From Anaerolineales bacterium (GTDB lineage: Bacteria; Chloroflexota; Anaerolineae; Anaerolineales; UBA6663), in contig JBGAGY010000006.1 in the NCBI GenBank assembly GCA_044226485.1, positions 253,941 to 317,940 of the forward strand: DNA of 64,000 nt, in the 5' to 3' direction. A model generated the notes under the pieces. That model had not been told where the DNA came from. It made no database searches and saw nothing but the letters and a program-made list of their open reading frames with translations. Shown piece after piece: positions 1 through 50,172 of this stretch; the stretch's first letter is position 1; each line of letters begins with the position of its first letter. A program made the position numbers and the translations under genes.

Positions 1-1519
1 AGCCTGTCACGACAGTCTGACGGCGGCCGGCATCAACCTGTCCGCATACACCACAGCCGCCAGCGCCGCCGATGTGCGCGACATCGCTCGGGCGCTGCAC
101 TACAGTCGCGTTGACCTGTACGGCATCTCGTATGGCACGCGCCTTGCCATGACGATCATGCGCGACGATCCCACTCTTGTGCGCGCTGCAGTGCTCGACT
201 CGGCGTTGCCGCCGGAGGTCTTGCGCATCAATGAGACCGCCGCTAACGCGGAGCAGGCGCTCGACTCGCTCTTCGCAGACTGCGCGGCTGACCCGGTCTG
301 TGTCGCGACGTATCCCGATCTTGCCGAGACCTTCGATGCGCTCCTGGCTCAGGCCGCGGCCCAGCCCATCGTCATCCCCAGTGCTGACGCCCTCGGCGGC
401 GCTCAATCTTTGCAGTTGGATCCGGCCGGCGTCATCAACGCCGCGGTCTGGGGCCTGCACATCTCGGATTACATTCCCGCCCTGCCGTATGCGATCACGG
501 CCTTACAGCAAGGCGATGTGACGTCGCTGAACCCCGTGGCCGCGATCTTCTCATCGGCTGCGCCTGACATGAGCTCGGTCGTCAACCTGGCGATCACGTG
601 TCACGAACAGATCCTGCCAACGTCAGCCGATGCCTTGAACGCCTCATTCGATGCCCACCCGCGGACGGCGGCCTTCGGGCGCCTACATGTGTTCGGCGAT
701 GCGGCCACCGGCATCGCGGTCTGCCAGGCGTTGGGCCTCAGCGCGGCAGCCGAGGCGGAGCTGCGACCGCTCGAGACGGATCTGCCGAGCCTGATCCTGG
801 CTGGCGGACTCGATCCCACGACGCCGGCCGACTACGGTCGACAGGCGGCGCGCGAATCGAGCGAGAGCGCCTTCGTGCTGTGGCGAGAGGCCGGCCACGC
901 CGTCAGCGTTGGGCCCGACGCCCGCTGTGCGCAGTCGATCATCAGCCAGTTTCTGACCGACCCTGCCGCGCGGCTCGACACGACCTGTGTGGCAACAACC
1001 ACCCGGCGCGCGTTCCTGGCGCCTGGCGACCTGGCGGTGCAGGCGGCGCCGGCTGCCATGGCGGACACAGCTCCCCGCTCGTCCGATCCAGCAACCTCAG
1101 GCTCCTCTGCCGCGACCACCAGCGACGAACCTGCCCCGCAAGACGGTGGCGGGGGCAACAGCGGGGGCGACGACTCAGGTCTGGCGTCCGGCGAACCGTT
1201 CGTCGGACTGATGGGCGTTTCGATCGACCAGTGCCTGGTCTGTCTGAGTCACTTCCTGGGGCTCGAGCCCGGACAGCTGTATTACGAAACCGGCGTCGAG
1301 ACCGGCGGGCAGGTGTGGTTTCTCTATCGGGCCGACAACTACTATGGCCGGATCGTGGACATCGCTGTGGCCGCCGTGCCCGATGGGACGTTGTTCGTCC
1401 TGATGCTCACGGATCCTGGGAACCGTGACGCTTACTACGGCAGTGTGTACCTGCCGACGATCGACGAAGCGACGACTGCTTACTGGGGCGATCTGGAGCC
1501 GAGCGAGCCTGTCACGTAG
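1..1519 (+). CDS. alpha/beta-hydrolase fold serine hydrolase (S33/TAP-like peptidase family), 5'-truncated by window edge; carries a C-terminal low-complexity linker plus extra ~120-aa domain
   Basis: Track ORF 74..1519 stays open in-frame back to position 1, so the true start is outside the window. GISYG (GxSxG) nucleophile elbow. Ser/Asp/Gly-rich linker (SSDPATSGSSAATTSDEPAPQDGGGGNSGGDDSG) precedes the C-terminal domain. Confidence 0.6.
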   Translation, partial: ACHDSLTAAGINLSAYTTAASAADVRDIARALHYSRVDLYGISYGTRLAMTIMRDDPTLVRAAVLDSALPPEVLRINETAANAEQALDSLFADCAADPVCVATYPDLAETFDALLAQAAAQPIVIPSADALGGAQSLQLDPAGVINAAVWGLHISDYIPALPYAITALQQGDVTSLNPVAAIFSSAAPDMSSVVNLAITCHEQILPTSADALNASFDAHPRTAAFGRLHVFGDAATGIAVCQALGLSAAAEAELRPLETDLPSLILAGGLDPTTPADYGRQAARESSESAFVLWREAGHAVSVGPDARCAQSIISQFLTDPAARLDTTCVATTTRRAFLAPGDLAVQAAPAAMADTAPRSSDPATSGSSAATTSDEPAPQDGGGGNSGGDDSGLASGEPFVGLMGVSIDQCLVCLSHFLGLEPGQLYYETGVETGGQVWFLYRADNYYGRIVDIAVAAVPDGTLFVLMLTDPGNRDAYYGSVYLPTIDEATTAYWGDLEPSEPVT

Positions 1520-1543
1520 CGCAAGGGCGTGGCGCGTCGATCG

Positions 1544-2644
1544 TCAGCGCCCCAGCAGTTGTTCGCAGAGCCGGCGATTGCGCGCCATCTGCTGCTTGGC
1601 CACGGGCGCCAGGTCGCTGGCGAGCGCCAGCTGCGAGTAGCCCGTGCGAGCGGCCTCGAAGTGCTTGCGGCTGACCTCCAGCGCGACAAGGGCCTCGGAG
1701 TAGGCCTGCGCCGGCAGGTCGGGTCGCGCTGCGGCGGCGGCATCGTCGGCCGCGCGTTGGCCGAGCGTGATGTGGGCCTGCGCCCAGGTCAAGAGCGCCA
1801 GTGAGTTGCCCTCGCTCGGGATCGCCGTCAGGCTCGCTTCGGCGTGTTTCAGGGCGGCTCGCGCGTCACCGGCCTGAAGGGCAAGGCTCGACAAAAGCCG
1901 TTCGGTCAGGGCACGCTCCGTGACACTCAACCGAGTCCCAAAACTCGCGGCGCGCTCGAGATAGAGCTCGGCTTCACCCAGCTGGTTCTCGCGTAGCGCT
2001 AGAGATCCCAATTGGAACCAGAGATGGGCGTTGTCGGGCTCGCGTCGCAAGACGCCCTCGATGATGTCGCGGTCGCGTTGCGAGCGCGAGTCTCCACCCT
2101 GTACCGTCGCGCGCAGATAGCCGTAATGCGTCAACCTCAGGTCGCTGGGTTCGACGCGCCCCCCGGCGCGCTGGATCGAGGGCAGCACCTGCTCGTGGAT
2201 CGCCTGCTCGAATCGATACTCTTTGCGATTTCGAAAGAGCCTGAGCACAGGATGTTCGGTGAACGACACGGCCTCGCCGGGCGGCATCGGGCTGTGATAC
2301 AGCATGGCCCAGCCGTCGATGCGCGGCGACGCCGCGTCGGCGCCGTCCAGGAATGCGTGAAGCGCGCCACGGGTGTCCTCAGGGACTTCATCGTCGGCAT
2401 CCAGCACCAGGATCCAGTCGCCGGTTGCCGCGTCGAGGCTGACATTGCGGGCCTCGGCGAAGTCGTGGCGCCAGGCATGTTCGATCACTCGAGCGTCGAA
2501 CGAGCGCGCGATGGCGATGGTGTCGTCGGTCGAACCTGTGTCGACCACCACGACCTCGTCGGCCAGGCCCCTGGCGCTCGACAGGCAGCGCGCGAGGTCG
2601 GCCGACTCGTTCCTGGCGATCATGCAGACGGAGAGACGAGGCAT
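1544..2644 (-). CDS. family-2 glycosyltransferase (N-terminal GT-A domain) fused to C-terminal TPR repeats
   Basis: N-terminal CMIARNE...VVVVDTGSTDDT...ILVLDADDE, typical of GT2 (DxD). C-terminal half has TPR-like helical repeats. Overlaps the upstream paralog by 25 nt. Confidence 0.8.
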   Translation of the reverse strand: MPRLSVCMIARNESADLARCLSSARGLADEVVVVDTGSTDDTIAIARSFDARVIEHAWRHDFAEARNVSLDAATGDWILVLDADDEVPEDTRGALHAFLDGADAASPRIDGWAMLYHSPMPPGEAVSFTEHPVLRLFRNRKEYRFEQAIHEQVLPSIQRAGGRVEPSDLRLTHYGYLRATVQGGDSRSQRDRDIIEGVLRREPDNAHLWFQLGSLALRENQLGEAELYLERAASFGTRLSVTERALTERLLSSLALQAGDARAALKHAEASLTAIPSEGNSLALLTWAQAHITLGQRAADDAAAAARPDLPAQAYSEALVALEVSRKHFEAARTGYSQLALASDLAPVAKQQMARNRRLCEQLLGR

Positions 2645-4590
2645 GTCAGGGCTCTCACTACGGCGTCGATGAGATGCGGATGTCGGTCGTACTGATGGAC
2701 GATGGCAGGTGCATGCCCGTCGGCGGCCAGGACACGGCCGCCGTCGTCGGCGGTCAGGTCTTCGGGGAACATGGATCCAGCCGTCAGGAAGCGACCGCCG
2801 TTGGGCACCGCCACGGCGCCCGGCAGGCGACCCGAGTGGAGCAGGGCGTTGTGGGCGCCTTGATCGAGCCCGGCGAGACGTCCATCGGTCGAGTGTGCCA
2901 CGAGCTCACGCGACAGGCTGTCGAGGTAGCGGCCGATCGCGCCGGATGTGCCCAGCACCGTGCCCGAGCACGCGATCGGCAGATCGCTCATCTCCGCCCA
3001 GCGCTCACGCCCATACAACGAGCGCAGCCATTCGGCGTTGTTGGTCTCACAGCCGAGCGTGAAGAGCGGATCCTCGAGCGGCAACACAAGCTCGGCCTCG
3101 AGGGGCTCGGCGAATGGATCGCCCTGGAAGATCACGTCGCGGACGTCGGTCAGGAGCGCGCCATCAACGTCGGGATGGGCAGCCAGCCACTCCGCATACA
3201 GACGATAGCGCTCGACGTTGACCGACTGCGTCCCCGGCTTGAACGGGACGAGCGTTGCATGGCGCCGGATCTCGGCCTCGGTCTCGGCGTCGAGGTCCGC
3301 CCCGAAGATGACAAGGCGCGCACCCGGATTCCGACGCCCGATGTGCTGAGACCACGACTCGAAGAACGGCCACAGCCCGCCCCAGGGCAGGCCGCGCACA
3401 GCGCCGAGTGTCGCCGGCTGCATCAGGCGGACGGGCTGGCCGCGGCGCGCCGTGGCCGCGCATTCCGATGACAGCGTCAGCCCCGACGCGCGCGCCATCA
3501 GGCGGTCGCACAACCCCAGCTGGGCCCGGGCCACCTGAAAGCGGTCGCTCAGGTTGGCGCGGTGCTCGGCTCGCAAGCCCGGGTCGTCGATCAGGGCCTT
3601 GAAGCCGTCGACGGCTTCAGCCAGCGCCCCGCGCGCTGAGGGCAGCATGACGCGCTGCGCGGCCAGGGTCGCCTGGCCCTTGTGGGCGCGAAGCAGCACT
3701 TCGACAGTGCGTTGCGCGCCGATCTGAAGGGCGGCGTTGGCGCTGATCAGGTGCAGGGTGGGGCTCACTCGCCCGTTCTGCGGAAGCTCGAGGCCGAGTC
3801 GAGCGAAGTGACGGGCCTCAGGGAAGTCGGCGCGTCGGTCGGCGATCGCAGCCAGGGCGGCGAGGCTCTGCTGCAACACGTCGACGTTCACGCCGTCGAC
3901 GGACAGGTCCTGCCAGACATGCAGGAGCGTGCGCTGCGCCTCGTCGTCGAGGCCGAGCACCTGCTGCGTCAGGCCAAGCTTGATCCACGAATACGCATCG
4001 TCGGGGCGGCGTTCGGCTTCGGCGCGGAGCAACTCAAGGTTGCGCTGCTGTCGGCTGGCGCCCTGGGCCTGCTCGCTCAGATAACCGTAGTGCAAGATGC
4101 GCAAACCGCTCGGCGCGACAGTGCCGCCCGAGCGCTGAATGCTCGGCAGGATCTGAGTGTGAAGGTTGAGTTCGAAGCGGTGCTCCGGCCGATTGCGAAA
4201 CACGCGCACCTCGTCCGACTCGAGATGGTCGGTCAGGACGTCGGTCGGCGTGAAGTGATGCATGGTGAACAGCAGCCCGTCGACGGAGCAGGCCGACACG
4301 ACGTCGCGGAGGACGCGGGCGGTCTCGGGCGGCACTTCCTCATCGGCGTCGAGGTGAAGGATCCACTCGCCGTTGGCGGCGTCGAGCCCGACGTTGCGCG
4401 CCACTCCGAAGTCGTTCGTCCAGGCGTGCTCGATCACTCGAGCTCCGAGCGAGGTCGCGAGGGCGATTGTGTCGTCGGTCGAGCCCGTGTCGACCACGAC
4501 GATCTCGTCAACCACGCCGTTGATGCTCTGCAAACAGCGGCGCAGGTTAGCGGCTTCGTTCTTGACGATCAGGGTCGCCGTGAGAAGCAT
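2620..4590 (-). CDS. family-2 glycosyltransferase + TPR repeats + ~280-aa C-terminal domain of unknown function
   Basis: N-terminal LIVKNEAANL...VVVVDTGSTDDT...HLDADEE is paralogous to the downstream gene. Central TPR-like region. C-terminal region (GADLDAETE...GLDQGAHNALLHSG...) has no family I can name. Confidence 0.75.
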   Translation of the reverse strand: MLLTATLIVKNEAANLRRCLQSINGVVDEIVVVDTGSTDDTIALATSLGARVIEHAWTNDFGVARNVGLDAANGEWILHLDADEEVPPETARVLRDVVSACSVDGLLFTMHHFTPTDVLTDHLESDEVRVFRNRPEHRFELNLHTQILPSIQRSGGTVAPSGLRILHYGYLSEQAQGASRQQRNLELLRAEAERRPDDAYSWIKLGLTQQVLGLDDEAQRTLLHVWQDLSVDGVNVDVLQQSLAALAAIADRRADFPEARHFARLGLELPQNGRVSPTLHLISANAALQIGAQRTVEVLLRAHKGQATLAAQRVMLPSARGALAEAVDGFKALIDDPGLRAEHRANLSDRFQVARAQLGLCDRLMARASGLTLSSECAATARRGQPVRLMQPATLGAVRGLPWGGLWPFFESWSQHIGRRNPGARLVIFGADLDAETEAEIRRHATLVPFKPGTQSVNVERYRLYAEWLAAHPDVDGALLTDVRDVIFQGDPFAEPLEAELVLPLEDPLFTLGCETNNAEWLRSLYGRERWAEMSDLPIACSGTVLGTSGAIGRYLDSLSRELVAHSTDGRLAGLDQGAHNALLHSGRLPGAVAVPNGGRFLTAGSMFPEDLTADDGGRVLAADGHAPAIVHQYDRHPHLIDAVVRALTCLVSPSA

Positions 4591-4597
4591 AAGGGCC

Positions 4598-5446
4598 TCA
4601 TGTCAACGCGAGACGAAAGCCGAGGCCGGTGGATGTGTAAGACGGCAGCAGGCTTTCGCGCGCGGAGCAGCGAGCCAGCTTTCGGCTGTAATACCACGAG
4701 CCACCGCGCACCACGCGCTTGCCCTCGGCATGTGGATCTTCGCGGCCGTCGCCGGCCACGTACGGATACGGCCTCAAGATCGAGGCCGTCCACTCGTACA
4801 CGTTGCCGGCCATGTCCTGGACGCCGTCGGCGCTGACGCCGCCCGGGACATACATGTGGAGCGGTGAGGTGTCGCGCCGGTTGTTCTCGGCGGTGTTGCA
4901 GCGCCAGGCGTCGAAGTCGGCGCCCCAGGGGTAGATGCGGCCGTCGGTGCTGCGCGCCGCGCGCTCCCACTCGATCTCGGTCGCCAGGCGATAGGCCTGT
5001 CCGGTCTGCTGCTTCAGCCAGGCGCAGTAGGCGATGGCGTCGTGCCAGGAGACGTTGACGACCGGGTGCTCCTCGATACCCTTGGGGATGTCGAAGTTGA
5101 TCCAGTGCCGCGGCGCCTTGTAGCCGGTCGACCAGATGAAGGGCCGATACTCCAGGTTCGTCACAGGATGCTGGCCGATGCTGAACGCCGCCAGCTCGAC
5201 GGTGTGCGCCGGCTGCTCGGCCATGAACATGTTGCGGCTGTCCCACTCATTGGCCCAATCCTCGCGCAGGAGCAGATACTTGACCTGCTCGTCGGGCGTC
5301 CCGATCAGGCAATGCCCGGCAGGGATGTGGATCATGGGCGCCACACGCACCATCAATTTCTCGAGATCCTTCTCGGCGACGGTCTCGTGTTCTTCGGCGG
5401 CCCTCAGGTCCGCCGCGATCTGGGCCAGGCGATCGAGTTTGCTCAT
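4598..5446 (-). CDS. FGE-sulfatase (SUMF1/EgtB/PvdO) family domain protein lacking the FGE catalytic Cys pair
   Basis: Conserved FGE-family blocks (HPVVNVSWHDAIAYCAWL, RLATEIEWERAAR, YPWG, DMAGNVYEWT, RGGSWYYS). Only a single Cys sits after RGGSW, not CxPxYCxRYR. N-terminal coiled-coil-like segment. ATGA start/stop overlap with the upstream gene. Confidence 0.8.
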   Translation of the reverse strand: MSKLDRLAQIAADLRAAEEHETVAEKDLEKLMVRVAPMIHIPAGHCLIGTPDEQVKYLLLREDWANEWDSRNMFMAEQPAHTVELAAFSIGQHPVTNLEYRPFIWSTGYKAPRHWINFDIPKGIEEHPVVNVSWHDAIAYCAWLKQQTGQAYRLATEIEWERAARSTDGRIYPWGADFDAWRCNTAENNRRDTSPLHMYVPGGVSADGVQDMAGNVYEWTASILRPYPYVAGDGREDPHAEGKRVVRGGSWYYSRKLARCSARESLLPSYTSTGLGFRLALT

Positions 5447-6600
5447 GGCGCCATCCTTTCAGCTCGCTGTGCGGCGACGTCCACGGCCAGCGCGTTGGTC
5501 TGCGCCTGCTCGTGGATACGCCTGTAAACGTCAAGCATGTCCGGCACCATCGCGTCGGACGTGAAGCGGGCCGCCTGGGCGCGGTTCGCGCGCGCCAGCA
5601 GGCGTCGTTCGCTCAAGGTGTCGATGTGGGTCAGGATGGCTCGCTCCCAGGCATAGGCCGTGTTTTCGACGAGCGTGCCGAAGTGGCGCAGACCCGAATA
5701 GACGGATCCTTCTGAGGCGATCCAGGGCACACCGACCGCCAGGTACTCGAGCGCCTTGATCCAGCTGCGCCGTTCGTCGTAGCTGCCAGAGAGCGGCGCG
5801 AGGCCGATGTCGAGCCCGCGCAGTTGCGCTGGCCACTCGTTGTACGGCACCCAGGGTCGCAGGACCTTCTGCTCGTGGGAGACCTTCAGCGCGTCGAGCA
5901 GGCGGCCGTCGTTTCCGTGGATGACGATCTCGACATCCGGTCGGGCTCGGCAGACGCGCTGCAACGCCGTCAGCACGCCGCTTTCGGTGAAGGATTGCAG
6001 GTGCGACAGGCTGCCGCCCCAGCCGATGCGAATCTTGCCAGGCTCTGCGGTGGCGCTCAGTTCGCCGGTGTCGCGCGTCGGGCGCTCGTCGGCGCGGTAG
6101 ATGGCAGGGTCGAGCGCGTTCGGGAGGTGATAGGTCGGGAGCAGATGAGCCCAATCTTCAGCCAGGCGTTGCGACGGCATCGTGGCCGCATGGCAGAGCT
6201 TGAGGCCCCAGGCGAATTGCTCGATGGGCGTCGGCGACATCGTCTCGTAACCGCCGTCGGGGTGCCGCACCCAGCCCTTGTGCCAGTAGGCGTAGGCCGG
6301 GTTGCTGTCGGGCATTTGATCGTAGGCATCGTCGAACTCGGCGATGATCGTTTTGCCCTGCGCTTTCCAGTGAAGGATGGCGGCCAGGACGGGTCCGACC
6401 AGGTTGCGCTGGATGATCAGAACATCGGCCGCGCGACAGGCCGACATGGCCACTGGCGTGCCGCTCAGCCACTCGCGCAGATCGACGAGCGTCGCGTGGG
6501 CGAGGCCTGAGCGATGGATGGCGCGAGCAGGCACGGCGCAACGCCACTCGCTGCTGTTCCACTCGTGCGGATTGTCCGCCGTCACAAAGACGAGTTTCAT
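5443..6600 (-). CDS. GT-B-fold glycosyltransferase-like protein (GT1/GT4-like), paralog of the C-terminal domains of the two upstream genes; no TPR
   Basis: Start chosen at MKLVFVTADNPHEW (track ORF extends to 6747 through an Arg/Pro-rich, probably non-coding extension). C-terminal block LDIGLAPL...VGVPWIASE aligns with FDVLVQPL...GLPWLASP and FDVLMAPV...SLPFAASP of the paralogs. Start overlaps the upstream stop by 4 nt (ATGA). Confidence 0.65.
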   Translation of the reverse strand: MKLVFVTADNPHEWNSSEWRCAVPARAIHRSGLAHATLVDLREWLSGTPVAMSACRAADVLIIQRNLVGPVLAAILHWKAQGKTIIAEFDDAYDQMPDSNPAYAYWHKGWVRHPDGGYETMSPTPIEQFAWGLKLCHAATMPSQRLAEDWAHLLPTYHLPNALDPAIYRADERPTRDTGELSATAEPGKIRIGWGGSLSHLQSFTESGVLTALQRVCRARPDVEIVIHGNDGRLLDALKVSHEQKVLRPWVPYNEWPAQLRGLDIGLAPLSGSYDERRSWIKALEYLAVGVPWIASEGSVYSGLRHFGTLVENTAYAWERAILTHIDTLSERRLLARANRAQAARFTSDAMVPDMLDVYRRIHEQAQTNALAVDVAAQRAERMAP

Positions 6601-8327
6601 GACCGGGCGCCCCCCCAGGCGCGATGAGCGACGTCGAAGGCCGCCGGCACTGGCGTGCCGAGCGGGTTGAGGGCGAGTGGTGTCGGGCTTTCGTTCGTCA
6701 GCGCTTCGAGGCGGGCCAGCGGGAGCGCGCCCGTCGTCGTGCGCCACCAGGCATCTGCCAGCGCACCCGCTTCAAAGTCCTGGGCGGCGCGCCGGCCGTG
6801 TTCGGCCAGTTCGGCGCGCAACTGCGGCTGTTCGATCAGGCGCGTGAGCTGGGTGAACCACGCGTCCGAGTCGGTCGCCACGAGCCCCCCTGACCAGTTG
6901 CTCGAGGTCATGGTGGGCGAGGCCAGCCACGGCAGGCCCAGAGCTCCCGCTTCAATGAAGGGTTGGCCGCCGATGCTCTCGGCGTAAGCGCCAGGTCGCA
7001 GCGGCTGGACGAGGACGTCGAACTGCGAGAGCAGATACGGCCGATCGGATCCGCCAACGGGCGGAAGGTATAGTCTCTGGCTGTCCGGGACCGACTGCGC
7101 GAACTGCTGGTAGGCCAGCGGATCGCCCGCCACGACCAGGCGCGCGTCAGGGTGGGTCTTCAACACCCGCGACAGCTCGCGTCGAATGAGGGCCAGGTCG
7201 AGATGCGTGCCTGGGCCGGCCAGCCACCCGATGCTCAATTGGGCCTTCGGCTGATGCGGCAGATCCCAACCGCCTCCGGCACGCGCCCAACCGCCGGCGA
7301 TCACGCGGACGCGCTGCCCGGCCTCGCGCAGCACTTCGGCCATCGGCTCCGAAGGCGCGACGACCATGTCGGCCAGGCTCAGGGCCGTGATGAACGACTC
7401 GACCCGTTCGGGCGAACCCAGACCGACGCGATGGAAGGCCGGGTGCTCGCCGGGAAGACGGGCATAGTCGCAGGCCAGGCTGACGACGATGGCCACGCCC
7501 TCCGCTGCCGCCATGGCCAGACCCTGGGTCAGCTGCGCGTCGGCATGCGGCTCGTGGGCGATGATGACGTCGTAATCGCGCGTGCGCTCAGGCGCCAGCG
7601 CCAGGCACTCGTCGACCTCGGCGCCGCGCGCGCGCAGGGCCGCGGCGGGCACGCGTGTGAAACCCGAACCGGCCACCGGCGCGACGACCAGCGCACGCAA
7701 CGGACCCGCGCGGCGATGCGGTTCCGGGGCCGTCTCGGCCTGGCGTTGCAGTCGCAGGGAGATGAGCAACTGACCGAGCGCCTCGGCGACTTCGTGCTGG
7801 CCCTCGCGGCGAGCGGCGCGAATGTTGAGCTCGACCAGGGCGGGCAGCAATCGATCGATTTCAGTCAGACGTGAAGCGATCAGCGCAGCCGGTTCGCGCG
7901 AGTTGACGATTTCGTCGAGCAAGGCCGCGGCGCGGCGCACGTCGGCCTCGCGCACAAATGAAAGACCTTCGTCGACAGAACCCAGGTCGCGGCGCAGATT
8001 GGCCAGATCCTGCTCGACGAACGAGGCCGTCGTGGCGCTTCGGTTCGGCGGGGCCGTCTCGCCGTGTTCGGCGCGGATCAGGCTCAGCCGGTTGAGGACG
8101 TCGTGCCCCTCGGGCCGCAGGGCCTGGGCCGCTGCGTAGCGTTCTTCGGCCGCCGACAAACGCCCGGCCGCGAGTTCGGCATCGCCCAGCCAGAGCAGGG
8201 CTTCGACATCGTCCGGCGCGGCCTCGACGACGGTGCGAAGCAAATCGCGCGCGCTGTCGACCCGGCCGGCATGAAGCTCAGCACGGGCCTGGGCGCGGCG
8301 GAGGTGGAGGGCGGTGGGCAAAGGCAT
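6597..8327 (-). CDS. TPR-repeat protein fused to a GT-B-fold glycosyltransferase-like C-terminal domain (OGT/GT41- or GT4-like architecture)
   Basis: N-terminal TPR repeats (DVEALLWLGDAELAAGRLSAAEERYAAAQALRPEG). C-terminal IGWLAGPGTHLDLALIRRELSRVLKTHPDARLVVAGD...FDVLVQPLRPGAYAESIGGQPFIEAGALGLPWLAS resembles the GT-B donor-binding half. Start set at MPLPTAL (8327); the track ORF runs to 8474 as an alternative. Confidence 0.65.
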   Translation of the reverse strand: MPLPTALHLRRAQARAELHAGRVDSARDLLRTVVEAAPDDVEALLWLGDAELAAGRLSAAEERYAAAQALRPEGHDVLNRLSLIRAEHGETAPPNRSATTASFVEQDLANLRRDLGSVDEGLSFVREADVRRAAALLDEIVNSREPAALIASRLTEIDRLLPALVELNIRAARREGQHEVAEALGQLLISLRLQRQAETAPEPHRRAGPLRALVVAPVAGSGFTRVPAAALRARGAEVDECLALAPERTRDYDVIIAHEPHADAQLTQGLAMAAAEGVAIVVSLACDYARLPGEHPAFHRVGLGSPERVESFITALSLADMVVAPSEPMAEVLREAGQRVRVIAGGWARAGGGWDLPHQPKAQLSIGWLAGPGTHLDLALIRRELSRVLKTHPDARLVVAGDPLAYQQFAQSVPDSQRLYLPPVGGSDRPYLLSQFDVLVQPLRPGAYAESIGGQPFIEAGALGLPWLASPTMTSSNWSGGLVATDSDAWFTQLTRLIEQPQLRAELAEHGRRAAQDFEAGALADAWWRTTTGALPLARLEALTNESPTPLALNPLGTPVPAAFDVAHRAWGGARS

Positions 8328-8370
8328 GGCGTCGGCTAAGTCGGCAGAGCGCGATCGAAGGCGATGATCC

Positions 8371-10068
8371 TCATCGTGCTCGCGCGAGATCTCCGATGAG
8401 TTCGTGCCAGAAGGCCCCGACAGCCTCGGCCCGGCGAGACTGCGCCAGCTCGTGGCCAGCCCGTGCCAGCTCACCGCGCCAGGCGTTCTCGTCGACGAGG
8501 CGGTTCAACTGTGTGGTCCACTCGTCGGTCGTCGCGCAGAACACGCCGCCCGAGGCCCACTCAGCCAGCGCCGGCGCCGGGCTCGCGGCAAAGGGCAGGC
8601 TGCGCGCCCCGGCTTCCATGAGGCGCTGGTCACTCCCGATGCAGGCCCAGGCCTCGTGTCGCACCGGCGCCATGAGCACGTCAAAGTGCGCCAGTAAGTA
8701 CGGGTAGTCGTCGGGGCCGACCATCGGCAGGAAGAGCTTACGCGGCTCGGGCACGTCGTCGAAGAGCTGATAGGCCGTCGGCGAGCCCGCGATGGCCAGG
8801 TGGACATGGGGTCGTGACTTGATCACGGCGCAGATCGCGTCATGGATGCTGACGAGGTCCAGATCCTGGCTCGGATCGCCGACCCAGCCGAGCACCGTTC
8901 CGGCGTGGGCGGGCGCTGGCCGCGTCCACCACGCGTTGGCCGGCGACCACGCGCTCGGCGCCACGGCCGTCCGGCGGCAGCGCGAGGACAGCGCTGCAGC
9001 GAGATGCGTGCTCGCTGTCGTCACGAGGTCGGCCTGCGCGAGCACCAGTTCCAGGTTGCCCAGCGCTTCGCGGCTTGCCAGGTATGAGCGTCGCGGGTGA
9101 TCGGCGGGGAGGGCGAAGTCATCGCAGACCACGTCGACGATGATCTTTCGGCCGGCGGACTGCGCGCGCTTGAAGGTATGCATCAGCTCGCTCGAGAGAT
9201 GCGGGCGGCTGAAGACGAGCACGTCGAATTGATTGAGATCGTCGGCGTCGGGCGTGCGCGTGAGCTTGACGCGGTGTCGCCGGTCGGCGAGTGCATTGGC
9301 GGGGACGCCAAGGCGCGTGGCATCGCTCGATTCGCCGGTGCCGTAGAAAGCCACAGCAGCCGGGTGGGTCGGCGCCTGGTTTCCCGACGTTCCGTTGGGC
9401 GTGGACGTCGCGGGCGCCTGGCGCGCAGATGCCTTGAGCCGCGCGAGCTTGTCGCTCAGGTCGGGCCGCGCCAGCACGGCTTCTGGTTGAGCCGGAGCGA
9501 CGCGAGCCAGAGCGGTCTGGAACTCGGGCTCGGTCGGGCACAGCGAAACAGCCTGTCGATACAGCGCGCGCGCCGACTCGAGATCCTCAACCTCCTCGTA
9601 GCATGTGCCCAGGAGATGCAGGGCTTCGGCGTCGTCGGGCACTGAGCGAACGCGGCTCACCAGCAAGGCGACGCCTTCCTGAAGCCGATCCAGGTCAAGG
9701 TACAGTTGCGCCAGGTTGCGTGTAGCGGCGCCGTGTTCGGGATCCTGCTCGAGCGCACTCAAGAACGCCGACTCCGCGGCTTCTGCCTGGCCGTTGAGCG
9801 CGCAGGCAAAGCCGAGGTTGTTGTACATTTCGGCGTTGTTCGGCGCCAGCTGCACTGCGTGTTGGAACTCGCCGAGCGCGTCGGGAAGACGACCCAGGCG
9901 CAGAAGGCTGATCCCCAGGCCCGTGGCCACGCCGGCGTCATGCGGCGCCAGGATCCGGGCTTGAGCGAGATGCTGCTGAGCGGTGGCCCAGTCTCCAGCG
10001 CCGGCACTGGCGTCGGCACTGTTGAGCAAGGACTGTAGGTCGAAGGTTGCAGTGGTCATGGCAGGCAC
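8371..10068 (-). CDS. TPR-repeat protein fused to a GT-B-fold glycosyltransferase-like C-terminal domain, paralog of 6597..8327
   Basis: N-terminal ~200 aa of TPR repeats (AEMYNNLGFACALNGQAEAAESAFLSALEQDPEH...). C-terminal domain is colinear with the two downstream paralogs. First gene of the operon, with a 213-bp promoter region upstream. Confidence 0.7.
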   Translation of the reverse strand: MPAMTTATFDLQSLLNSADASAGAGDWATAQQHLAQARILAPHDAGVATGLGISLLRLGRLPDALGEFQHAVQLAPNNAEMYNNLGFACALNGQAEAAESAFLSALEQDPEHGAATRNLAQLYLDLDRLQEGVALLVSRVRSVPDDAEALHLLGTCYEEVEDLESARALYRQAVSLCPTEPEFQTALARVAPAQPEAVLARPDLSDKLARLKASARQAPATSTPNGTSGNQAPTHPAAVAFYGTGESSDATRLGVPANALADRRHRVKLTRTPDADDLNQFDVLVFSRPHLSSELMHTFKRAQSAGRKIIVDVVCDDFALPADHPRRSYLASREALGNLELVLAQADLVTTASTHLAAALSSRCRRTAVAPSAWSPANAWWTRPAPAHAGTVLGWVGDPSQDLDLVSIHDAICAVIKSRPHVHLAIAGSPTAYQLFDDVPEPRKLFLPMVGPDDYPYLLAHFDVLMAPVRHEAWACIGSDQRLMEAGARSLPFAASPAPALAEWASGGVFCATTDEWTTQLNRLVDENAWRGELARAGHELAQSRRAEAVGAFWHELIGDLARAR

Positions 10069-17380: not shown

Positions 17381-18478
17381 ATGTTCAAAAATCCTTCCGG
17401 CCGCATTTTCGACATCATCGAATACGCCAGCATGGGGCCGAACGAAATCGTGCGGCGTCTGCCCGAGGGCGGCAACGGCAACTTCCGCATTGGCTCGCAG
17501 GTCCGCGTGTACGAAGGCCAGGCCGCTGTCTTCTTCCGCGACGGCAAGGCCCTCGACGTCTTTGGCCCCGGCCAGCACACGATCACGACAGCCAACATCC
17601 CGTACCTCGTCGACCTGATCGGCAAGCTTTTCAACGACCGCTCGCCGTTTGCGGCCGACGTCGTCTTCGTCAACACCCGTGAGTTCCCGGACATGGGTTG
17701 GGGCACGTCGCAGCCGATCCTCGTCCGCAACCCCGGCATGGGCCTCGGCGTCGCGCTGCTCAAGGCGCACGGCACCTACGCCTTCCAGATCACGAACCCG
17801 CAGCAGTTCGTGTCGCAGGTCGTCGGCGCGGCCGGCGCGTTCAAGACCGAGCAGATCCAGACCCGGTTCCGCTCCATCCTGCTCTCCAAGCTGCAGGACC
17901 TGATCGCCGAGCTCGGCACCAAGGGCGGCAAGTCGGTGCCCGAGATGATCGCCCTGACCGATGAGATCGGTTCGGGTCTGCTGGCGAAGTGCCAGGAAGA
18001 CTTCAAGGCCGTCGGTGTCACGCTCAAGCAGGTCTATGCCCAGAGCATTTCGCCCGACGAACGCGGCGCCGAGCAACTGCGCGCGATGGGCATGCTCGAC
18101 ATGGCCACGTACACGCAGCTGCAGGCGGCTGACGCGATGCGTGACGCTGCCAAGAACCCCTCGGGCGGTGCCGGCCTGACCGCCGGTATCGGCGCGGGTA
18201 TGGGCATCGGCCAGGTGCTGGGCGGCGCCTTGCAGCAGGGCATGGCCAACACCGCCGGCTCGTCAATCCCGGCCGCCGGCGCGGCCGCTGGGGCTGCGGC
18301 GGGCGCCGCCGCAGCGGCAACGCCCGACGTCATGTCGCCGGCCCAGGCCGCTGCGTACCTTCAGGTGGCCGAGGCCGACGTGATGCAGATGATCACGGGC
18401 GGGCAGTTGAAGGCCAAGCAGATCGGCAGCCAGTACCGCATCTCGAAGTCGGCGCTCGACGACTTCCTCAAGAGCTGA
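17381..18478 (+). CDS. SPFH/Band-7 (Band_7_1, 'virion core protein'-like) domain protein fused via a Gly/Ala-rich linker to a C-terminal excisionase/MerR-type HTH DNA-binding domain
   Basis: MFKNPSGRIFDIIEY..., typical of the Band_7_1 N-terminus. Low-complexity GAGLTAGIGAGMGIG...AAGAAAGAAAGAAAAA linker. C-terminal MSPAQAAAYLQVAEADVMQMITGGQLKAKQIGSQYRISKSALDDFL matches excisionase-family HTH_17. Confidence 0.7.
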   Translation: MFKNPSGRIFDIIEYASMGPNEIVRRLPEGGNGNFRIGSQVRVYEGQAAVFFRDGKALDVFGPGQHTITTANIPYLVDLIGKLFNDRSPFAADVVFVNTREFPDMGWGTSQPILVRNPGMGLGVALLKAHGTYAFQITNPQQFVSQVVGAAGAFKTEQIQTRFRSILLSKLQDLIAELGTKGGKSVPEMIALTDEIGSGLLAKCQEDFKAVGVTLKQVYAQSISPDERGAEQLRAMGMLDMATYTQLQAADAMRDAAKNPSGGAGLTAGIGAGMGIGQVLGGALQQGMANTAGSSIPAAGAAAGAAAGAAAAATPDVMSPAQAAAYLQVAEADVMQMITGGQLKAKQIGSQYRISKSALDDFLKS

Positions 18479-21138: not shown

Positions 21139-22329
21139 TCAGCGACTCAGGGCCCGCAGCTGACGCAGATGCACCTGATCGTGATCCAGCACCACTTGCA
21201 GCAATTCCTTGAGAGACGTCCTGCCAAACAGAGCGTGACGGGCTGTGCGTTCATAGGCCTCAGGGGCCAGGCCGCGCAACCTGTCGATCAACGCTCGACG
21301 CGCTTTCACAAAACCATCCAGCGCGGCCCGCCCATCCGCCTGCGCATAGCCACGCTCGCCCGCCCACTGATCGGTATCGACTCCGGCGATAAAGGGATTG
21401 GCCTGAGTCAACACGGCTTCGACCCGCTGTGCGTTCACTTCGACCTCGACATCCCGCAGGTGCGCGGCGATCTCGTTGGCGGACCAGGCGTCCGACGCCG
21501 GTCGGTCGGACCACGTGTCCGATCGATCTTCGAGAGCAGCGAACTCGGCCCACAGACGCGCGAGGTTGCCCGTCAACAGGTCGGGCAGGGCGGTGGCGGG
21601 TGAGGGAGCCGGCGTGAGTGAGTCGAGACATTCGCGCGCCCAGCGCCCAAAGACCTCGAGCGGCCCCTGGCCGACGACGAGCGTTCCCGCAGGCGGCTCG
21701 GCCAGACGATCGTCGGTGATCCACCAACACGGCATCCCGAGCGACGACGCCGGGGCGATATCGTCGCTGGGATCGTTGCCGATCATCAGGGCTTCATCGG
21801 GCCGCAGGCCCAGGTCGGCCAGGATCTCGGAGAAATAAGCGGGGTTCGGCTTGGCGAAGTGCCAGTCCTCGAGGACTGTGACGCGTTCGAGCGCAAGATC
21901 ACGCACACCGGCCCACGCCAACCGGGCTTCGATCGCGGCTCGCGGGAACAAGGCGTTTGTGGCGATGACGATCCGATAGCCTGAGGCGATGGCCCACTCG
22001 AGCACACCGCGCGCTTCGGGACGTTGGGCCGTCAGCGGCTGCAGCGCGTGAAAACCTTTGGCGTAGAAGGCGGCGTAGCGCTCGCGCCACTCGACCTCCG
22101 GGCGGCCGACCTGCGGCGTGAAGGCTTCAGCGAAGATGCTGTCGAGCGTCCTAGTCGGGTCCTGATTGTTGAGCATGGACGCCACGGAGCGCTGGGTCGC
22201 CGACACAACGACTTTGGGGTCAAGTTCCGGATATTGCCGCGCGAGCTGGCCGAAGTACGGGGGCAAAAACGACTCCATGCTGTTGACCAGCAGGGTGTCG
22301 TCGAGGTCGAACAACAGGGCTTTGATCAT
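21139..22329 (-). CDS. HAD-superfamily hydrolase fused to a DinB/YfiT-like (DinB_2) C-terminal domain
   Basis: HAD motif I LLFDLDDTLL near the N-terminus (start set at MIKALLFD). C-terminal ~170 aa with the conserved His pattern of the DinB_2 four-helix bundle. Confidence 0.65.
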   Translation of the reverse strand: MIKALLFDLDDTLLVNSMESFLPPYFGQLARQYPELDPKVVVSATQRSVASMLNNQDPTRTLDSIFAEAFTPQVGRPEVEWRERYAAFYAKGFHALQPLTAQRPEARGVLEWAIASGYRIVIATNALFPRAAIEARLAWAGVRDLALERVTVLEDWHFAKPNPAYFSEILADLGLRPDEALMIGNDPSDDIAPASSLGMPCWWITDDRLAEPPAGTLVVGQGPLEVFGRWARECLDSLTPAPSPATALPDLLTGNLARLWAEFAALEDRSDTWSDRPASDAWSANEIAAHLRDVEVEVNAQRVEAVLTQANPFIAGVDTDQWAGERGYAQADGRAALDGFVKARRALIDRLRGLAPEAYERTARHALFGRTSLKELLQVVLDHDQVHLRQLRALSR

Positions 22330-22406
22330 GGCGTGCTTCAGTATGTGCGGATGGGGGTGGCCAGGCCACGACTCGTCTGGCACGGTCGCTCAAACAACCA
22401 CTCGCA

Positions 22407-32998: not shown

Positions 32999-33307
32999 GC
33001 CTGCGACTGTTCCTCTCCATCGTGTAAACGCCCGGAATGGGCTGGAGTGGTGCACCGGCTCTCAGCCGCGATGGAACTGAGGCCGGTCCAATGATAGTAC
33101 GAATAACTGAGCCGCCGGTGTCGAGGTTCGGCTTGACCCACTCAGCCGCGCCCCAAAACGTTCGCCCGAGGCGCGGAACCGCGAAGGAGAGCGGATTGGT
33201 TTGTTTTTCCGGATCGGCGGTACACCTACTTAAAAGGAGCAGGCCCGGCGCCTGTGGCGGATCACATCCTTTTCGGTCCGCAGGCGGCGGTGCCGTACAA
33301 TATCACC

Positions 33308-47041: not shown

Positions 47042-47191
47042 GCTCACCGCGTCAGCCGACCCGCCCCATCTGGGGCGCCCTCTGGCGGCCGATCTCTCGA
47101 TTCCGCCTGGATTTGCCTCTGCTTCAATTCGGTGTATAACCAGATCAACGCTGTTGACATTCAATCGCAGCGCCAGGAAGCGGGTGCCGGC

Positions 47192-50053: not shown

Positions 50054-50172
50054 CAGCGGGTCGACAGCAGACGGTTGATGGCGGGTAGGGGCGATGCCTA
50101 CGTCGACCGCCCTTGTGGTTGCCAACCCACGTTTCCGAAAGACGAAGCACCCATGACGAAGGACGACAGCCG

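What the first reader, a model, noticed from the sequence alone, without database searches (positions are those of the whole stretch)
4598..5446. FGE-sulfatase-family protein without the formylglycine-generating Cys pair
The protein has all the structural hallmark blocks of the FGE/SUMF1/EgtB/PvdO fold (WHDAIAYCAW, EIEWERAAR, YPWG, GNVYEWT, RGGSW). After RGGSW it shows YYSRKLARCSARE with a single Cys, not the two catalytic cysteines of bona fide FGEs. It therefore probably does not make formylglycine on sulfatases. No sulfatase is present in the window. Like EgtB/OvoA/SenA-type or substrate-binding FGE-fold proteins, it may catalyse a different oxidative C-S or C-Se chemistry, or act as a recognition module for the glycosyltransferases. 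Its 35-aa N-terminal coiled-coil extension is also atypical.
Basis: partly seen in the sequence, partly recalled or inferred. Interest (0 to 1): 0.6.

Follow-up and report, generated by a model that had tools for sequence, protein, structure and literature searches.

The report
Cys-less FGE-fold protein in flagellin-glycosylation cassette
This gene encodes a protein with the fold of the sulfatase-activating enzyme FGE but without its two catalytic cysteines; across Anaerolineae bacteria it sits beside the same two glycosyltransferase genes, usually next to flagellar genes, so it probably helps put sugars on flagellin.

Summary
The 282-aa ORF at 4598-5446 (-) is a clear PF03781 protein (E 5.6e-47), and it lacks the FGE Cys pair. 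The loop after RGGS is 3 residues shorter than in true FGEs, and the FGE-specific 13-residue 'CNIWQGxFP' loop is also missing. The lone 'ARC' cysteine aligns with the human FGE Cys in 'YRCAAR'.

A Cys-less PF03781 protein is common: the superfamily has more than 214,000 50%-identity clusters. The closest solved relatives are ToxD and CalU17, which share the short loop. EgtB/OvoA/SenA-type chemistry is unlikely because the iron-binding DinB domain is absent.

The new result is the genomic context. The gene is the third, translationally coupled member of a conserved Anaerolineae cassette: a TPR-GT-B protein, a TPR-less GT-B paralog, and the FGE-like protein. In 13-14 of 19 orthologous places this cassette lies within 10 kb of flagellin, hook, motor or chemotaxis genes. 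The window itself has no flagellar gene.

Best reading: a cytoplasmic accessory subunit of a FlmG-like flagellin O-glycosylation system, acting in recognition or glycan tailoring. Its biochemical role is not shown. No paper in the searchable library links FGE-like proteins to flagellin glycosylation. Interest is moderate.

The parts
4598..5446 (-). FGE-fold (PF03781) protein, 282 aa, with no signal peptide and no catalytic Cys pair. It belongs to the ToxD/CalU17-like short-loop clade.
5360..5440 (-). N-terminal leader (aa 3-29), predicted as a single helix at lower confidence. Its sequence varies among orthologs.
4667..4696 (-). Remodelled former catalytic loop W251-Y252-Y253-S-R-K-L-A-R-C260. 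It is 3 residues shorter than in FGEs and nearly invariant in 95 orthologs (W 92/95, Y 94/95, Y 95/95, C 92/95).
4892..4906 (-). Subfamily-specific motif W181-R-C183-N-T185 (C183 in 94/95 orthologs). ToxD and CalU17 have Ala at the Cys position. The 13-residue FGE loop 'RWRCNIWQGRFPH' is deleted just before it.
5443..6600 (-). TPR-less GT-B-like protein (about 385 aa). It is a paralog of the GT domain of the next gene (24% id, E 4e-8). Its TGA stop overlaps the ATG of the FGE-like gene (ATGA). It is always directly upstream of the FGE-like gene in orthologous loci.
6597..8327 (-). N-terminal TPR + C-terminal GT-B (GT1/GT4-like) protein with FlmG/OGT-like architecture. The likely start is M50 of the listed ORF 6597..8474. 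Its stop overlaps the start of the next gene (ATGA).
8371..10068 (-). Second TPR + GT-B protein, a paralog of 6597..8327 and the first gene of the operon. Its TPR part corresponds to a separate small TPR gene in Leptolinea.
2620..4590 (-). GT2 domain plus about 270 aa of C-terminal domain with no Pfam match. It starts 7 nt after the FGE-like stop. It is present only in the closest relatives (L001-L003, L081).
1544..2644 (-). GT2 + TPR protein with a weak SunS-like match. It is the last gene of the operon. In L081 it is followed directly by flagellin.

Best explanation
The gene encodes a cytoplasmic FGE-fold protein that is not a formylglycine-generating enzyme. It belongs to the ToxD/CalU17-like 'short-loop' branch of PF03781. 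It defines an Anaerolineae orthogroup with its own near-invariant motifs (WRCNT, and RGG-x-WYYS-x-x-LARC-x-x-RE).

It is the third gene of a conserved, tightly coupled cassette: a TPR-GT-B protein, a TPR-less GT-B paralog, and the FGE-like protein. In this window the cassette is extended by a second TPR-GT-B and two GT2 genes. The cassette most likely glycosylates a protein in the cytoplasm, and flagellin is the most likely target.

By analogy with Caulobacter FlmG, the TPR domains would bind flagellin and the GT-B domains would transfer sugar. Within this system the FGE-like protein most likely works as a partner of the TPR-less GT-B. Either it binds the acceptor peptide or nascent glycan through the aromatic-rich remodelled groove that replaces the FGE active site (an accessory specificity factor, as GlfM is for Maf-2), or it tailors the glycan.

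**Shown**
- The FGE fold.
- Loss of the FGE catalytic residues.
- The ToxD/CalU17 affinity.
- The conserved synteny and the overlapping start and stop codons.
- The enrichment of flagellar genes nearby in orthologous loci.

**Inferred**
- That flagellin is the target.
- That the protein complexes with the GT-B.
- Whether it binds or catalyses.
For: **Fold and loss of the FGE site**
- PF03781 at E 5.6e-47.
- Cys pair absent and loop 3 residues shorter.
- The FGE-specific 13-residue loop is absent.
- Best PDB matches are ToxD (7spq, E 1.6e-38 by sequence) and CalU17.

**Selection on the remodelled site**
- 40 columns are invariant in 95 orthologs that go down to 49% identity, including Y253, R259, R263 and E264.
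- W251, Y252, C183 and C260 are at least 97% conserved.

**Cytoplasmic location**
- The N-terminus is charged, with no signal peptide.

**Synteny**
- The TPR-GT and GT-B-like genes lie directly upstream of the FGE-like gene in L001-L003 and L005-L008; in L004 and L009 tblastn found only the TPR-GT. The pair is also seen at L081, L082, L084-86, L088, the P0117 place and L089-L092.
- ATGA stop/start overlaps occur at both junctions in the window.

**Flagellar or chemotaxis genes within 10 kb**
- L081: fliC directly after the cluster.
- L003: fliC and fliD.
- L002: start of fliC at the contig end.
- L005-L008: flgN, flgK and flgL directly upstream, and fliC downstream.
- L009: fliC.
- L084-86: fliK, flgD, flgE.
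- L088: cheA and cheD, plus nucleotide-sugar genes.
- L089 and L090: flbD, motAB, fliLMNO(P).
- L091: a Maf-type MptE-like + TPR gene.
- L092: fliC, fliD, flaG, fliS ... fliJ directly downstream.

**Precedent**
- FlmG, the Caulobacter flagellin glycosyltransferase, has an N-terminal flagellin-binding TPR domain and a C-terminal GT-B domain, 596 aa in all (PMC7591256).
- Accessory specificity factors in flagellin glycosylation are known: GlfM with Maf-2 (bioRxiv 10.1101/2023.12.03.569772).
Against: - No flagellar, chemotaxis or flagellin gene occurs anywhere in this 64-kb window.
- The closest ortholog locus, L001, and also L004, L082 and the P0117 place show none in the DNA available.
- The association is guilt by neighbourhood only. 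No biochemical or genetic data exist for any member.
- The TPR-GT proteins were not shown to be sequence homologs of FlmG. Only the architecture matches.
- The nearest characterised relatives (ToxD, CalU17, PvdO) work in small-molecule biosynthesis, which favours an enzymatic role over a binding role.
- I could not inspect model coordinates. The spatial arrangement of C141, C183 and C260 and of the aromatic residues is therefore not established.
Confidence: 0.6

Rival explanations
1. It is an oxidative tailoring enzyme, as ToxD, PvdO or CalU17 are thought to be. It would act on a nucleotide sugar or on the glycan attached by the neighbouring glycosyltransferases. Its active site would be built from the conserved C183 and C260 and the WYY loop, possibly binding a metal.
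For: - The closest solved relatives are ToxD and CalU17, both encoded in biosynthetic clusters.
- The ToxD-type protein PsdC is genetically required, together with a WD40 protein, for the steps leading to 1,6-didesmethyltoxoflavin (PMC9911603).
- NCBIfam names Cys-less PvdO a dihydropyoverdine dehydrogenase.
- C183 (94/95) and C260 (92/95) are conserved more strongly than the buried C141 (72/95).
- L088 carries nucleotide-sugar biosynthesis genes downstream.
Against: - No metal-binding motif could be demonstrated.
- C183 is Ser in L009 and Ala in one ortholog.
- The Ser of 'RGGS' is Ala in most orthologs (consensus RGGAW).
- No mechanism is known for ToxD or CalU17, so the analogy predicts no specific chemistry.
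- No redox partner gene is conserved in the cassette.
Confidence: 0.3
2. The cluster makes or decorates a cell-surface polysaccharide or another glycoconjugate. The FGE-like protein is a lectin-like component of that pathway, and the flagellar neighbourhood is incidental.
For: - This window has no flagellar genes.
- GT2 and GT1/GT4 families are generic.
- Several orthologous loci carry very large multi-GT proteins upstream (L082, L090-L092).
Against: - TPR + GT-B and GT2 + TPR architectures are typical of protein glycosyltransferases: OGT gives the only PDB sequence hits, through the TPR region, FlmG has this architecture, and there is weak SunS-like similarity.
- No flippase, polymerase, undecaprenyl-phosphate priming transferase or exporter lies in the operon.
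- Motility genes lie within 10 kb at 13-14 of 19 places, far more than a random location would give.
Confidence: 0.12
3. It is a genuine ToxD ortholog working in an azapteridine (toxoflavin-like) pathway, as the JGI labels on many homologs suggest.
For: - ToxD is the best PDB sequence hit (E 1.6e-38).
- Many metagenomic homologs are auto-named 'toxoflavin biosynthesis protein ToxD'.
- The short loop and the LARC motif are shared.
Against: - Only 36% identity to ToxD in the Foldseek alignment.
- No GTP cyclohydrolase II, RibD-like, WD40 (ToxC) or ToxA methyltransferase gene was seen in the window ORFs scanned or in any orthologous locus.
- The subfamily motif WRCNT is AAANT in ToxD.
- The conserved neighbours are glycosyltransferases.
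Confidence: 0.03
4. It is an ordinary formylglycine-generating enzyme, or an EgtB/OvoA/SenA-type sulfoxide or selenoxide synthase.
For: PF03781 membership, and sub-threshold NCBIfam hits to EgtB, SenA and OvoA.
Against: - Both catalytic Cys are absent in two independent alignments.
- The FGE loop is deleted.
- No sulfatase is present.
- The EgtB, SenA and OvoA models match only in their C-terminal FGE-like part and at less than a third of their cut-off scores.
- There is no DinB domain in the 282-aa protein.
Confidence: 0.02

Closest known systems
ToxD (Burkholderia glumae toxoflavin biosynthesis protein, PDB 7spq) and its homolog PsdC
   Same: - Best sequence match among solved structures (E 1.6e-38 over aa 71-281) and second-best fold match.
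- Stand-alone FGE-fold protein with no Cys pair, the same 3-residue-shorter loop and the 'LARC' motif.
- Shares the 6-residue insert after 'W-L' and lacks the FGE 13-residue loop.
   Different: - About 36% identity.
- ToxD has AAANT where this orthogroup has the invariant WRCNT, and FTRFGD where this one has WYYSRK.
- ToxD is encoded with GTP cyclohydrolase II, RibD-like, WD40 and methyltransferase genes (PMC9911603). This protein is always encoded with TPR-GT-B and GT-B genes.
CalU17 (calicheamicin cluster, Micromonospora echinospora; PDB 6vqp, 7ml6)
   Same: - Best Foldseek match (E 6.4e-22, TM 0.72).
- Cys-less short loop with an 'RC' Cys.
- Shares the N-terminal region (EDWA..EW / DREGQAFPRDWF) preceding the core.
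   Different: - 32% identity.
- CalU17 has a long insertion after 'ANTAEH' that this protein lacks.
- It sits in a natural-product cluster, and I found no published function.
Formylglycine-generating enzyme (human SUMF1; S. coelicolor and T. curvata FGE)
   Same: - Same fold (Foldseek E about 1e-18).
- Shared hallmark blocks: HPV..VSW.DA.AY, LPTE.EWE.AAR, PWG, GNV.EW, RGGS, GFR.
- Residues aligned to what I recall as the second Ca2+ site (D211/G214/V216/E218) are retained (for the alignment; the site assignment is from memory).
   Different: - Both Cu(I)-binding cysteines are missing.
- The loop is 3 residues shorter.
- The 13-residue 'RWRCNIWQGRFPH' loop is deleted.
- There is no sulfatase partner.
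FlmG-type flagellin O-glycosylation systems (Caulobacter), and Maf-2 with its accessory factor GlfM
   Same: - This cassette encodes N-terminal TPR + C-terminal GT-B proteins of about 565-576 aa. FlmG has the same layout at 596 aa.
- The cassette lies next to fliC, fliD, flgKL or flgE in most orthologous loci.
- An extra small cis-encoded factor accompanies the transferase, as GlfM accompanies Maf-2.
   Different: - Sequence homology to FlmG was not tested.
- GlfM is predicted to be a four-helix bundle, not an FGE fold.
- No FGE-fold protein has been described in any flagellin glycosylation system in the literature I could search.
PvdO, GldK/PorK and Treponema Tvp1 (other Cys-less FGE-fold proteins)
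   Same: FGE fold without the catalytic cysteines.
   Different: - Much weaker matches (PvdO 71.5 bits vs cut-off 500; GldK 75.8 vs 350).
- By my recollection those proteins are exported periplasmic proteins or lipoproteins. This one has no signal peptide.

Membership tests
PF03781 FGE-sulfatase superfamily (fold level) | Significant match to the Pfam model over its full length, and the FGE fold | tested here: met
   161 bits against a cut-off of 23.3, profile positions 3-254 of 255. AF2 model pLDDT 90.5. Foldseek probability 1.00 to FGE-fold structures.
Formylglycine-generating enzyme (SUMF1-type) | Two catalytic, Cu(I)-binding cysteines in the loop 'GGS-x-x-C-H-x-S-Y-C-x-R-Y-R' (human C336 and C341) | tested here: not met
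   HMMER alignment to 6muj and MAFFT alignment with human, T. curvata and S. coelicolor FGE. The loop is 3 residues shorter and neither position holds a Cys.
Formylglycine-generating enzyme (SUMF1-type) | FGE-specific loop '...C/A-N-I-W-Q-G-x-F-P...' between the PWG and NT-x-ED blocks | tested here: not met
   A 13-residue deletion relative to all three FGEs, shared with ToxD and CalU17.
Formylglycine-generating enzyme (SUMF1-type) | A sulfatase substrate (C/S-x-P-x-R motif protein) encoded nearby or in the genome | tested here: not met
   No sulfatase family hit among about 33 window ORFs scanned. The regex scan gave one loose match, in an ORF with no Pfam family. The rest of the genome was not available.
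EgtB / OvoA / SenA sulfoxide or selenoxide synthases | N-terminal DinB-like domain carrying the iron site, fused to the FGE-like domain, and a score above the NCBIfam cut-off | tested here: not met
   EgtB 101 bits vs 360, SenA 100 vs 420, OvoA 63 vs 400. The best-scoring stretches match only the C-terminal part of each model, e.g. EgtB positions 272-413 of 413. The protein is 282 aa with a 35-aa leader.
ToxD (toxoflavin/azapteridine biosynthesis) | Close sequence and structure similarity, including the short loop and the LARC motif | tested here: met
   E 1.6e-38 to 7spq. Foldseek E 1.1e-21. Loop alignment.
ToxD (toxoflavin/azapteridine biosynthesis) | Encoded in a tox/psd operon with GTP cyclohydrolase II, a RibD-like deaminase, a WD40 protein and methyltransferases | tested here: not met
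   None of these is in the operon, in the window ORFs scanned, or in any orthologous locus. Operon composition is taken from PMC9911603.
Kinase-associated FGE-like domains (Pkn-type) | FGE-like domain fused to a Ser/Thr kinase domain | tested here: not met
   This is a single-domain protein. The only kinase in the window (18554-21073) carries PQQ-type repeats and no PF03781 domain.
PvdO / GldK-PorK-type exported FGE-fold proteins | Score above the family cut-off, and a signal peptide or lipoprotein signal | tested here: not met
   PvdO 71.5 bits vs 500, GldK 75.8 vs 350. The N-terminus is charged and helical with no hydrophobic segment.
Flagellin O-glycosylation island (FlmG-like) | Protein glycosyltransferase with a TPR acceptor-binding domain plus a GT-B domain | tested here: met
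   Genes 6597-8327 and 8371-10068 have N-terminal TPR and C-terminal Glyco_trans_1_4 / Glyco_transf_4 matches. FlmG architecture is from PMC7591256. Sequence homology to FlmG itself was not tested.
Flagellin O-glycosylation island (FlmG-like) | Location beside flagellin or other flagellar genes | tested here: inconclusive
   Met in orthologous loci, at 13-14 of 19 places. Not met in this window: no flagellar gene in 64 kb.
Flagellin O-glycosylation island (FlmG-like) | Flagellin is glycosylated in a cassette-dependent manner | not testable with these tools
   Needs mass spectrometry of flagellin and either genetics or heterologous reconstitution.

The most novel reading that the evidence does not exclude
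The FGE-like protein is a new kind of catalytic or specificity subunit of a flagellin glycosylation machine in Chloroflexota. It would reuse the FGE peptide-binding groove, now lined by the invariant WYY loop and by C183 and C260, in one of two ways: to recognise flagellin for the TPR-less GT-B, or to carry out a previously undescribed oxidative modification of flagellin or its glycan. That would be the first assigned role for the ToxD/CalU17-like branch outside small-molecule biosynthesis.
Probability: 0.2. Interest if true: 0.7.

Novelty: new variant of a known kind. Interest (0 to 1): 0.45.

Why it matters
Cys-less FGE-fold proteins are extremely numerous, with more than 214,000 50%-identity clusters in the superfamily, and almost all lack a known function. 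Even the structurally solved ToxD and CalU17 have no established mechanism.

This orthogroup offers a well-defined and testable context. It is a compact, translationally coupled three-gene cassette next to flagellin genes. Flagellin glycosylation systems can be reconstituted in heterologous hosts, as was done for FlmG and Maf.

If the link holds, it would add a new accessory component to bacterial protein O-glycosylation. It would give the ToxD/CalU17 branch a tractable assay. It would also shed light on the little-studied flagella of Anaerolineae, a group generally described as non-motile filaments (my own knowledge, not checked here).

The practical annotation lesson is that labels such as 'formylglycine-generating enzyme required for sulfatase activity' and 'toxoflavin biosynthesis protein ToxD' on these proteins are misleading.

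Tried and rejected
- **Hidden Cys pair.** Two alignment methods against three true FGEs found none.
- **EgtB, SenA, OvoA, PvdO or GldK membership.** All NCBIfam scores are far below cut-off.
- **ToxD orthology.** Rejected on gene context.
- **Flagellar genes in the window.** tblastn with FlgN, FlgK, FlgL, FliC, FliK, FlgD, FlgE and an FlhB-like protein from related loci found nothing. Pfam on 20 further ORFs found only housekeeping genes.
- **The ORF at the window's left edge (74-1519).** It first looked like a truncated alpha/beta hydrolase. The reading frame is in fact open to base 2, so the gene simply runs off the window. It replaces the MFS-fliC-fliD arrangement seen in L003.
- **Distant homologs (L010-L080, under 46% identity).** They lack both the WRCNT / WYYS..LARC motifs and the GT neighbours. 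They are paralogous PF03781 proteins and were not used for inference.
- **Profile search of 1.84 billion cluster representatives.** It gave the superfamily size, but the top hits were multi-repeat giants ranked by summed scores, which are uninformative for orthology.
- **Literature.** Searches for CalU17, for a ToxD mechanism, and for FGE-like proteins in flagellin glycosylation found nothing usable. One search failed on a syntax error.
- **PDB sequence searches of the neighbours.** The TPR-GT hit only the OGT TPR region, and the TPR-less GT-B hit nothing.
- **Cysteine geometry.** I could not read model coordinates, so distances between C141, C183 and C260 were not measured.
Full report
**1. 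The observation**

The minus-strand ORF 4598..5446 encodes 282 aa and starts with ATG. Pfam PF03781 matches aa 36-280 over essentially the whole model (E 5.6e-47, 161 bits). An AlphaFold2 model built on 95 orthologs is confident (pLDDT 90.5). It shows one N-terminal helix (aa 3-29, lower confidence) followed by the FGE fold. Foldseek against the PDB returns only FGE-fold proteins. The feature is real.

**2. The Cys pair is absent**

- HMMER aligns 'RGGSWYYSR---KLARCSARE' with S. coelicolor FGE 'RGGSYLCHDSYCNRYRVAARS'.
- I recovered human, T. curvata and S. coelicolor FGE segments from PDB search output. I then aligned them with the query, its Leptolinea ortholog, ToxD and CalU17.
- The three true FGEs have C-H-x-S-Y-C. 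The other four sequences have a loop 3 residues shorter with no Cys at either catalytic position.
- Those same four also lack the 13-residue FGE loop 'RWRCNIWQGRFPH'.
C141 ('AYC') aligns with the human 'AYC' Cys.
- By my recollection of the human FGE structure, these are Cys346 and Cys235, a structural disulfide. The catalytic numbering C336/C341 is confirmed by the PDB entry titles.
- C260 is therefore not a remnant of the catalytic pair.

**3. What it is not**

- All NCBIfam models (EgtB, SenA, OvoA, PvdO, GldK) score at a third or less of their cut-offs. The EgtB, SenA and OvoA models match only in their C-terminal FGE-like part.
- A 282-aa protein has no room for the DinB domain, which by my knowledge of EgtB structures holds the iron site.
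- There is no kinase fusion, and no signal peptide or lipobox.
- No sulfatase family or credible sulfatase signature occurs in the window ORFs scanned.

**4. Closest relatives**

- By sequence, the best solved relative is ToxD (7spq, E 1.6e-38), then CalU17 (about 1e-26), then true FGEs (about 1e-20).
- By fold, the best matches are CalU17 (6.4e-22) and ToxD (1.1e-21).
- ToxD-type proteins (PsdC) are genetically required, together with a WD40 protein, for the steps leading to 1,6-didesmethyltoxoflavin. The mechanism is unresolved (PMC9911603). I found no paper on CalU17.
- The superfamily is enormous: 214,435 50%-identity cluster representatives at E <= 1e-3. A Cys-less PF03781 protein is therefore ordinary in itself.

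**5. A distinct orthogroup**

- The 120 best database hits (41-94% identity) and the genome loci L001-L009 (49-95%) share the motifs WRCNT and RGG-x-WYYS-[RH]-[KR]-LARC-x-x-RE.
- More distant homologs (L010-L080, under 46% identity) lack these motifs.
- Among 95 orthologs, 40 columns are invariant. The former catalytic loop is nearly frozen: W251 92/95, Y252 94/95, Y253 95/95, R259, R263 and E264 95/95.
- C183 (94/95) and C260 (92/95) are conserved more strongly than C141 (72/95, otherwise I/V/L). ToxD and CalU17 have Ala at position 183.
- A site at the position of the old FGE active site is therefore under strong selection. Sequence alone cannot say whether it binds or catalyses.
- Twenty-six of the 120 best hits are 450-493 aa long. 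The three scanned are tandem double-FGE proteins, and the one whose locus was examined has a different context.
- All genome-resolved orthologs come from Anaerolineae or other Chloroflexota MAGs, or from Leptolinea isolates. The window itself is 95% identical at this gene to an Anaerolineales MAG (L001).

**6. Operon structure in the window**

Six minus-strand genes run from 10068 to 1544:

| Coordinates | Product |
|---|---|
| 8371-10068 | TPR + GT-B |
| 6597-8327 | TPR + GT-B (likely start at M50 of the listed ORF) |
| 5443-6600 | TPR-less GT-B-like protein |
| 4598-5446 | FGE-like protein |
| 2620-4590 | GT2 + unknown C-terminal domain |
| 1544-2644 | GT2 + TPR |

- The TPR-less protein is a paralog of the GT domain of its upstream neighbour (24% identity over about 290 aa, E 4e-8).
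- ATGA stop/start overlaps join 6597→5443 and 5443→FGE. Only 7 nt separate the FGE-like stop from the next start.
- A terminator-like hairpin followed by a T-run lies in the 210-nt gap upstream of the first gene (read by eye).

**7. Conserved synteny**

- tblastn of the window's proteins against 80 genome loci shows the FGE-like gene directly downstream of the TPR-GT and GT-B-like genes in L001-L003 (full six-gene cluster) and L005-L008. In L004 and L009 only the TPR-GT gave a hit.
- Look-ups of nine further short-form orthologs (50-70% identity) gave the same trio every time: a 543-602-aa TPR protein with weak or no GT Pfam hits, then a 354-385-aa protein with weak or no Pfam hits, then the FGE-like gene. 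Gaps were often 0-10 nt or overlapping.
- The core unit is therefore three genes. The two GT2 genes are an add-on seen only in the closest relatives (L001-L003, L081).

**8. The flagellar connection**

| Locus | Motility genes within 10 kb |
|---|---|
| L081 | Flagellin directly after the six-gene cluster |
| L003 | An MFS gene, then fliC and fliD |
| L002 | Start of fliC at the contig end |
| L005-L008 (four Leptolinea genomes) | flgN-flgK-flgL directly upstream, fliC 6-10 kb downstream |
| L009 | fliC 2 kb downstream |
| L084-86 | fliK, flgD, flgE and an flhB-like gene upstream |
| L088 | cheA and cheD upstream, nucleotide-sugar genes downstream |
| L089, L090 | flbD-motA-motB-fliL-fliM-fliN-fliO(-fliP) 5-10 kb away |
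| L091 | A Maf-type (MptE-like + TPR) gene upstream |
| L092 | fliC-fliD-flaG-fliS-flgBC-fliE-F-G-H-I-J directly downstream |

- This amounts to 13-14 of 19 places, or 10-11 of 16 if Leptolinea is counted once.
- The exceptions are this window, L001 and L082 (both with short contexts), L004 and the P0117 place.
- In the window itself, tblastn with eight flagellar proteins and Pfam on 20 further ORFs found no motility gene.
- At the left edge an alpha/beta-hydrolase gene runs off the window. In L003 the MFS-fliC-fliD genes occupy that position.

**9. Interpretation**

- N-terminal TPR + C-terminal GT-B is the architecture of Caulobacter FlmG. There the TPR domain binds flagellins and the GT domain transfers pseudaminic acid in the cytoplasm (PMC7591256).
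- The only PDB sequence hits of the window's TPR-GT are to the TPR region of O-GlcNAc transferase.
- From memory, GT2 + TPR is the layout of other flagellin or peptide glycosyltransferases (Listeria GmaR, C. difficile CD0240). Here there is weak SunS-like similarity.
- Accessory specificity factors are known in such systems: GlfM for Maf-2.
- I therefore read the cassette as a cytoplasmic protein-glycosylation unit, probably targeting flagellin. The FGE-like protein would be a dedicated partner of the TPR-less GT-B.
- Two roles remain open. The first is acceptor or glycan recognition through the remodelled, aromatic-rich groove; the FGE fold is a peptide-binding relative of the C-type lectin fold. 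The second is oxidative tailoring, as suspected for ToxD, PvdO and CalU17.
- I weight recognition slightly higher because the cassette lacks any conserved redox partner and no metal site can be demonstrated. This is inference.

**10. Novelty and score**

- Full-text searches found no paper connecting FGE-like proteins with flagellin glycosylation.
- The finding as written, a Cys-less FGE-family protein, is a common situation. Its EgtB-like suggestion does not hold.
- The conserved cassette and its flagellar association are new and testable.
- I rate it a new variant of a known kind, with interest 0.45.

Noticed in passing
window 2620-4590 (-), aa ~380-656: The GT2 protein just downstream of the FGE-like gene has a C-terminal domain of about 270 aa with no Pfam or NCBIfam match. 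It contains a 'DVRDVIFQGDPF' segment that looks like a nucleotide-sugar transferase DxD region. It may be a second, undescribed transferase domain.
   Followed up: no
window 21139-22383 (-): A HAD-hydrolase domain is fused to a DinB_2 domain (Pfam E 3.4e-16 and 2.7e-11). DinB is the domain that EgtB pairs with its FGE-like domain. Here it lies 16 kb away, is fused to something else, and is not seen in the orthologous loci, so it is probably unrelated.
   Followed up: partly
window 18554-21073 (-): An 839-aa Ser/Thr protein kinase carries a PQQ/BamB-like beta-propeller region. It has no FGE-like domain, so it is not a kinase-associated pseudo-FGE.
   Followed up: partly
window 1-1519 (+) compared with L003 11600-15561 and L001 13966-15288: There is a synteny break right after the last GT2-TPR gene. 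L001 and L003 have an MFS transporter there, followed in L003 by fliC and fliD. The window has an alpha/beta hydrolase (TAP-like) gene that runs off the left edge. Only 51 bp are shared with L001 at this junction.
   Followed up: partly
L007 12096-17999; L082 1-7015; L090 2701-6891; L091 2840-7090; L092 2273-7012: Many orthologous loci carry very large multi-domain glycosyltransferases (1,400-1,750 aa, combining GT1/GT4 and two GT2 domains). L007 and L082 also carry GT92-like + TPR proteins beside the cassette. The glycan built there may be complex.
   Followed up: no
P0016, P0094, P0118 (L087 10001-11482): Twenty-six of the 120 best hits are 450-493 aa long. The three scanned with Pfam are tandem double-FGE proteins. 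In L087 one follows a 410-aa gene with no Pfam hit, has no TPR-GT neighbour, and sits among sugar ABC-transporter genes. This may be a paralogous function.
   Followed up: partly
window 17381-18478 (+) and 31004-33055 (-): Two SPFH/Band-7 proteins are present. The first is fused to a C-terminal HTH_17 DNA-binding domain, which is an unusual combination.
   Followed up: no
window 46970-50182 (-) vs 47132-50053 (+): A 1,070-aa antisense ORF with no Pfam hit lies opposite the FtsK gene. It is most likely a spurious long ORF of the kind produced by about 66% G+C. Similar shadow ORFs occur throughout the window.
   Followed up: partly
L007 (Leptolinea tardivitalis YMTK-2) 1000-5975 and 19699-20172: The genome of this isolate, which I recall being described as a non-motile filament, encodes FlgN, FlgK, FlgL, rod or hook-like proteins and a flagellin next to the cassette.
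   Followed up: no
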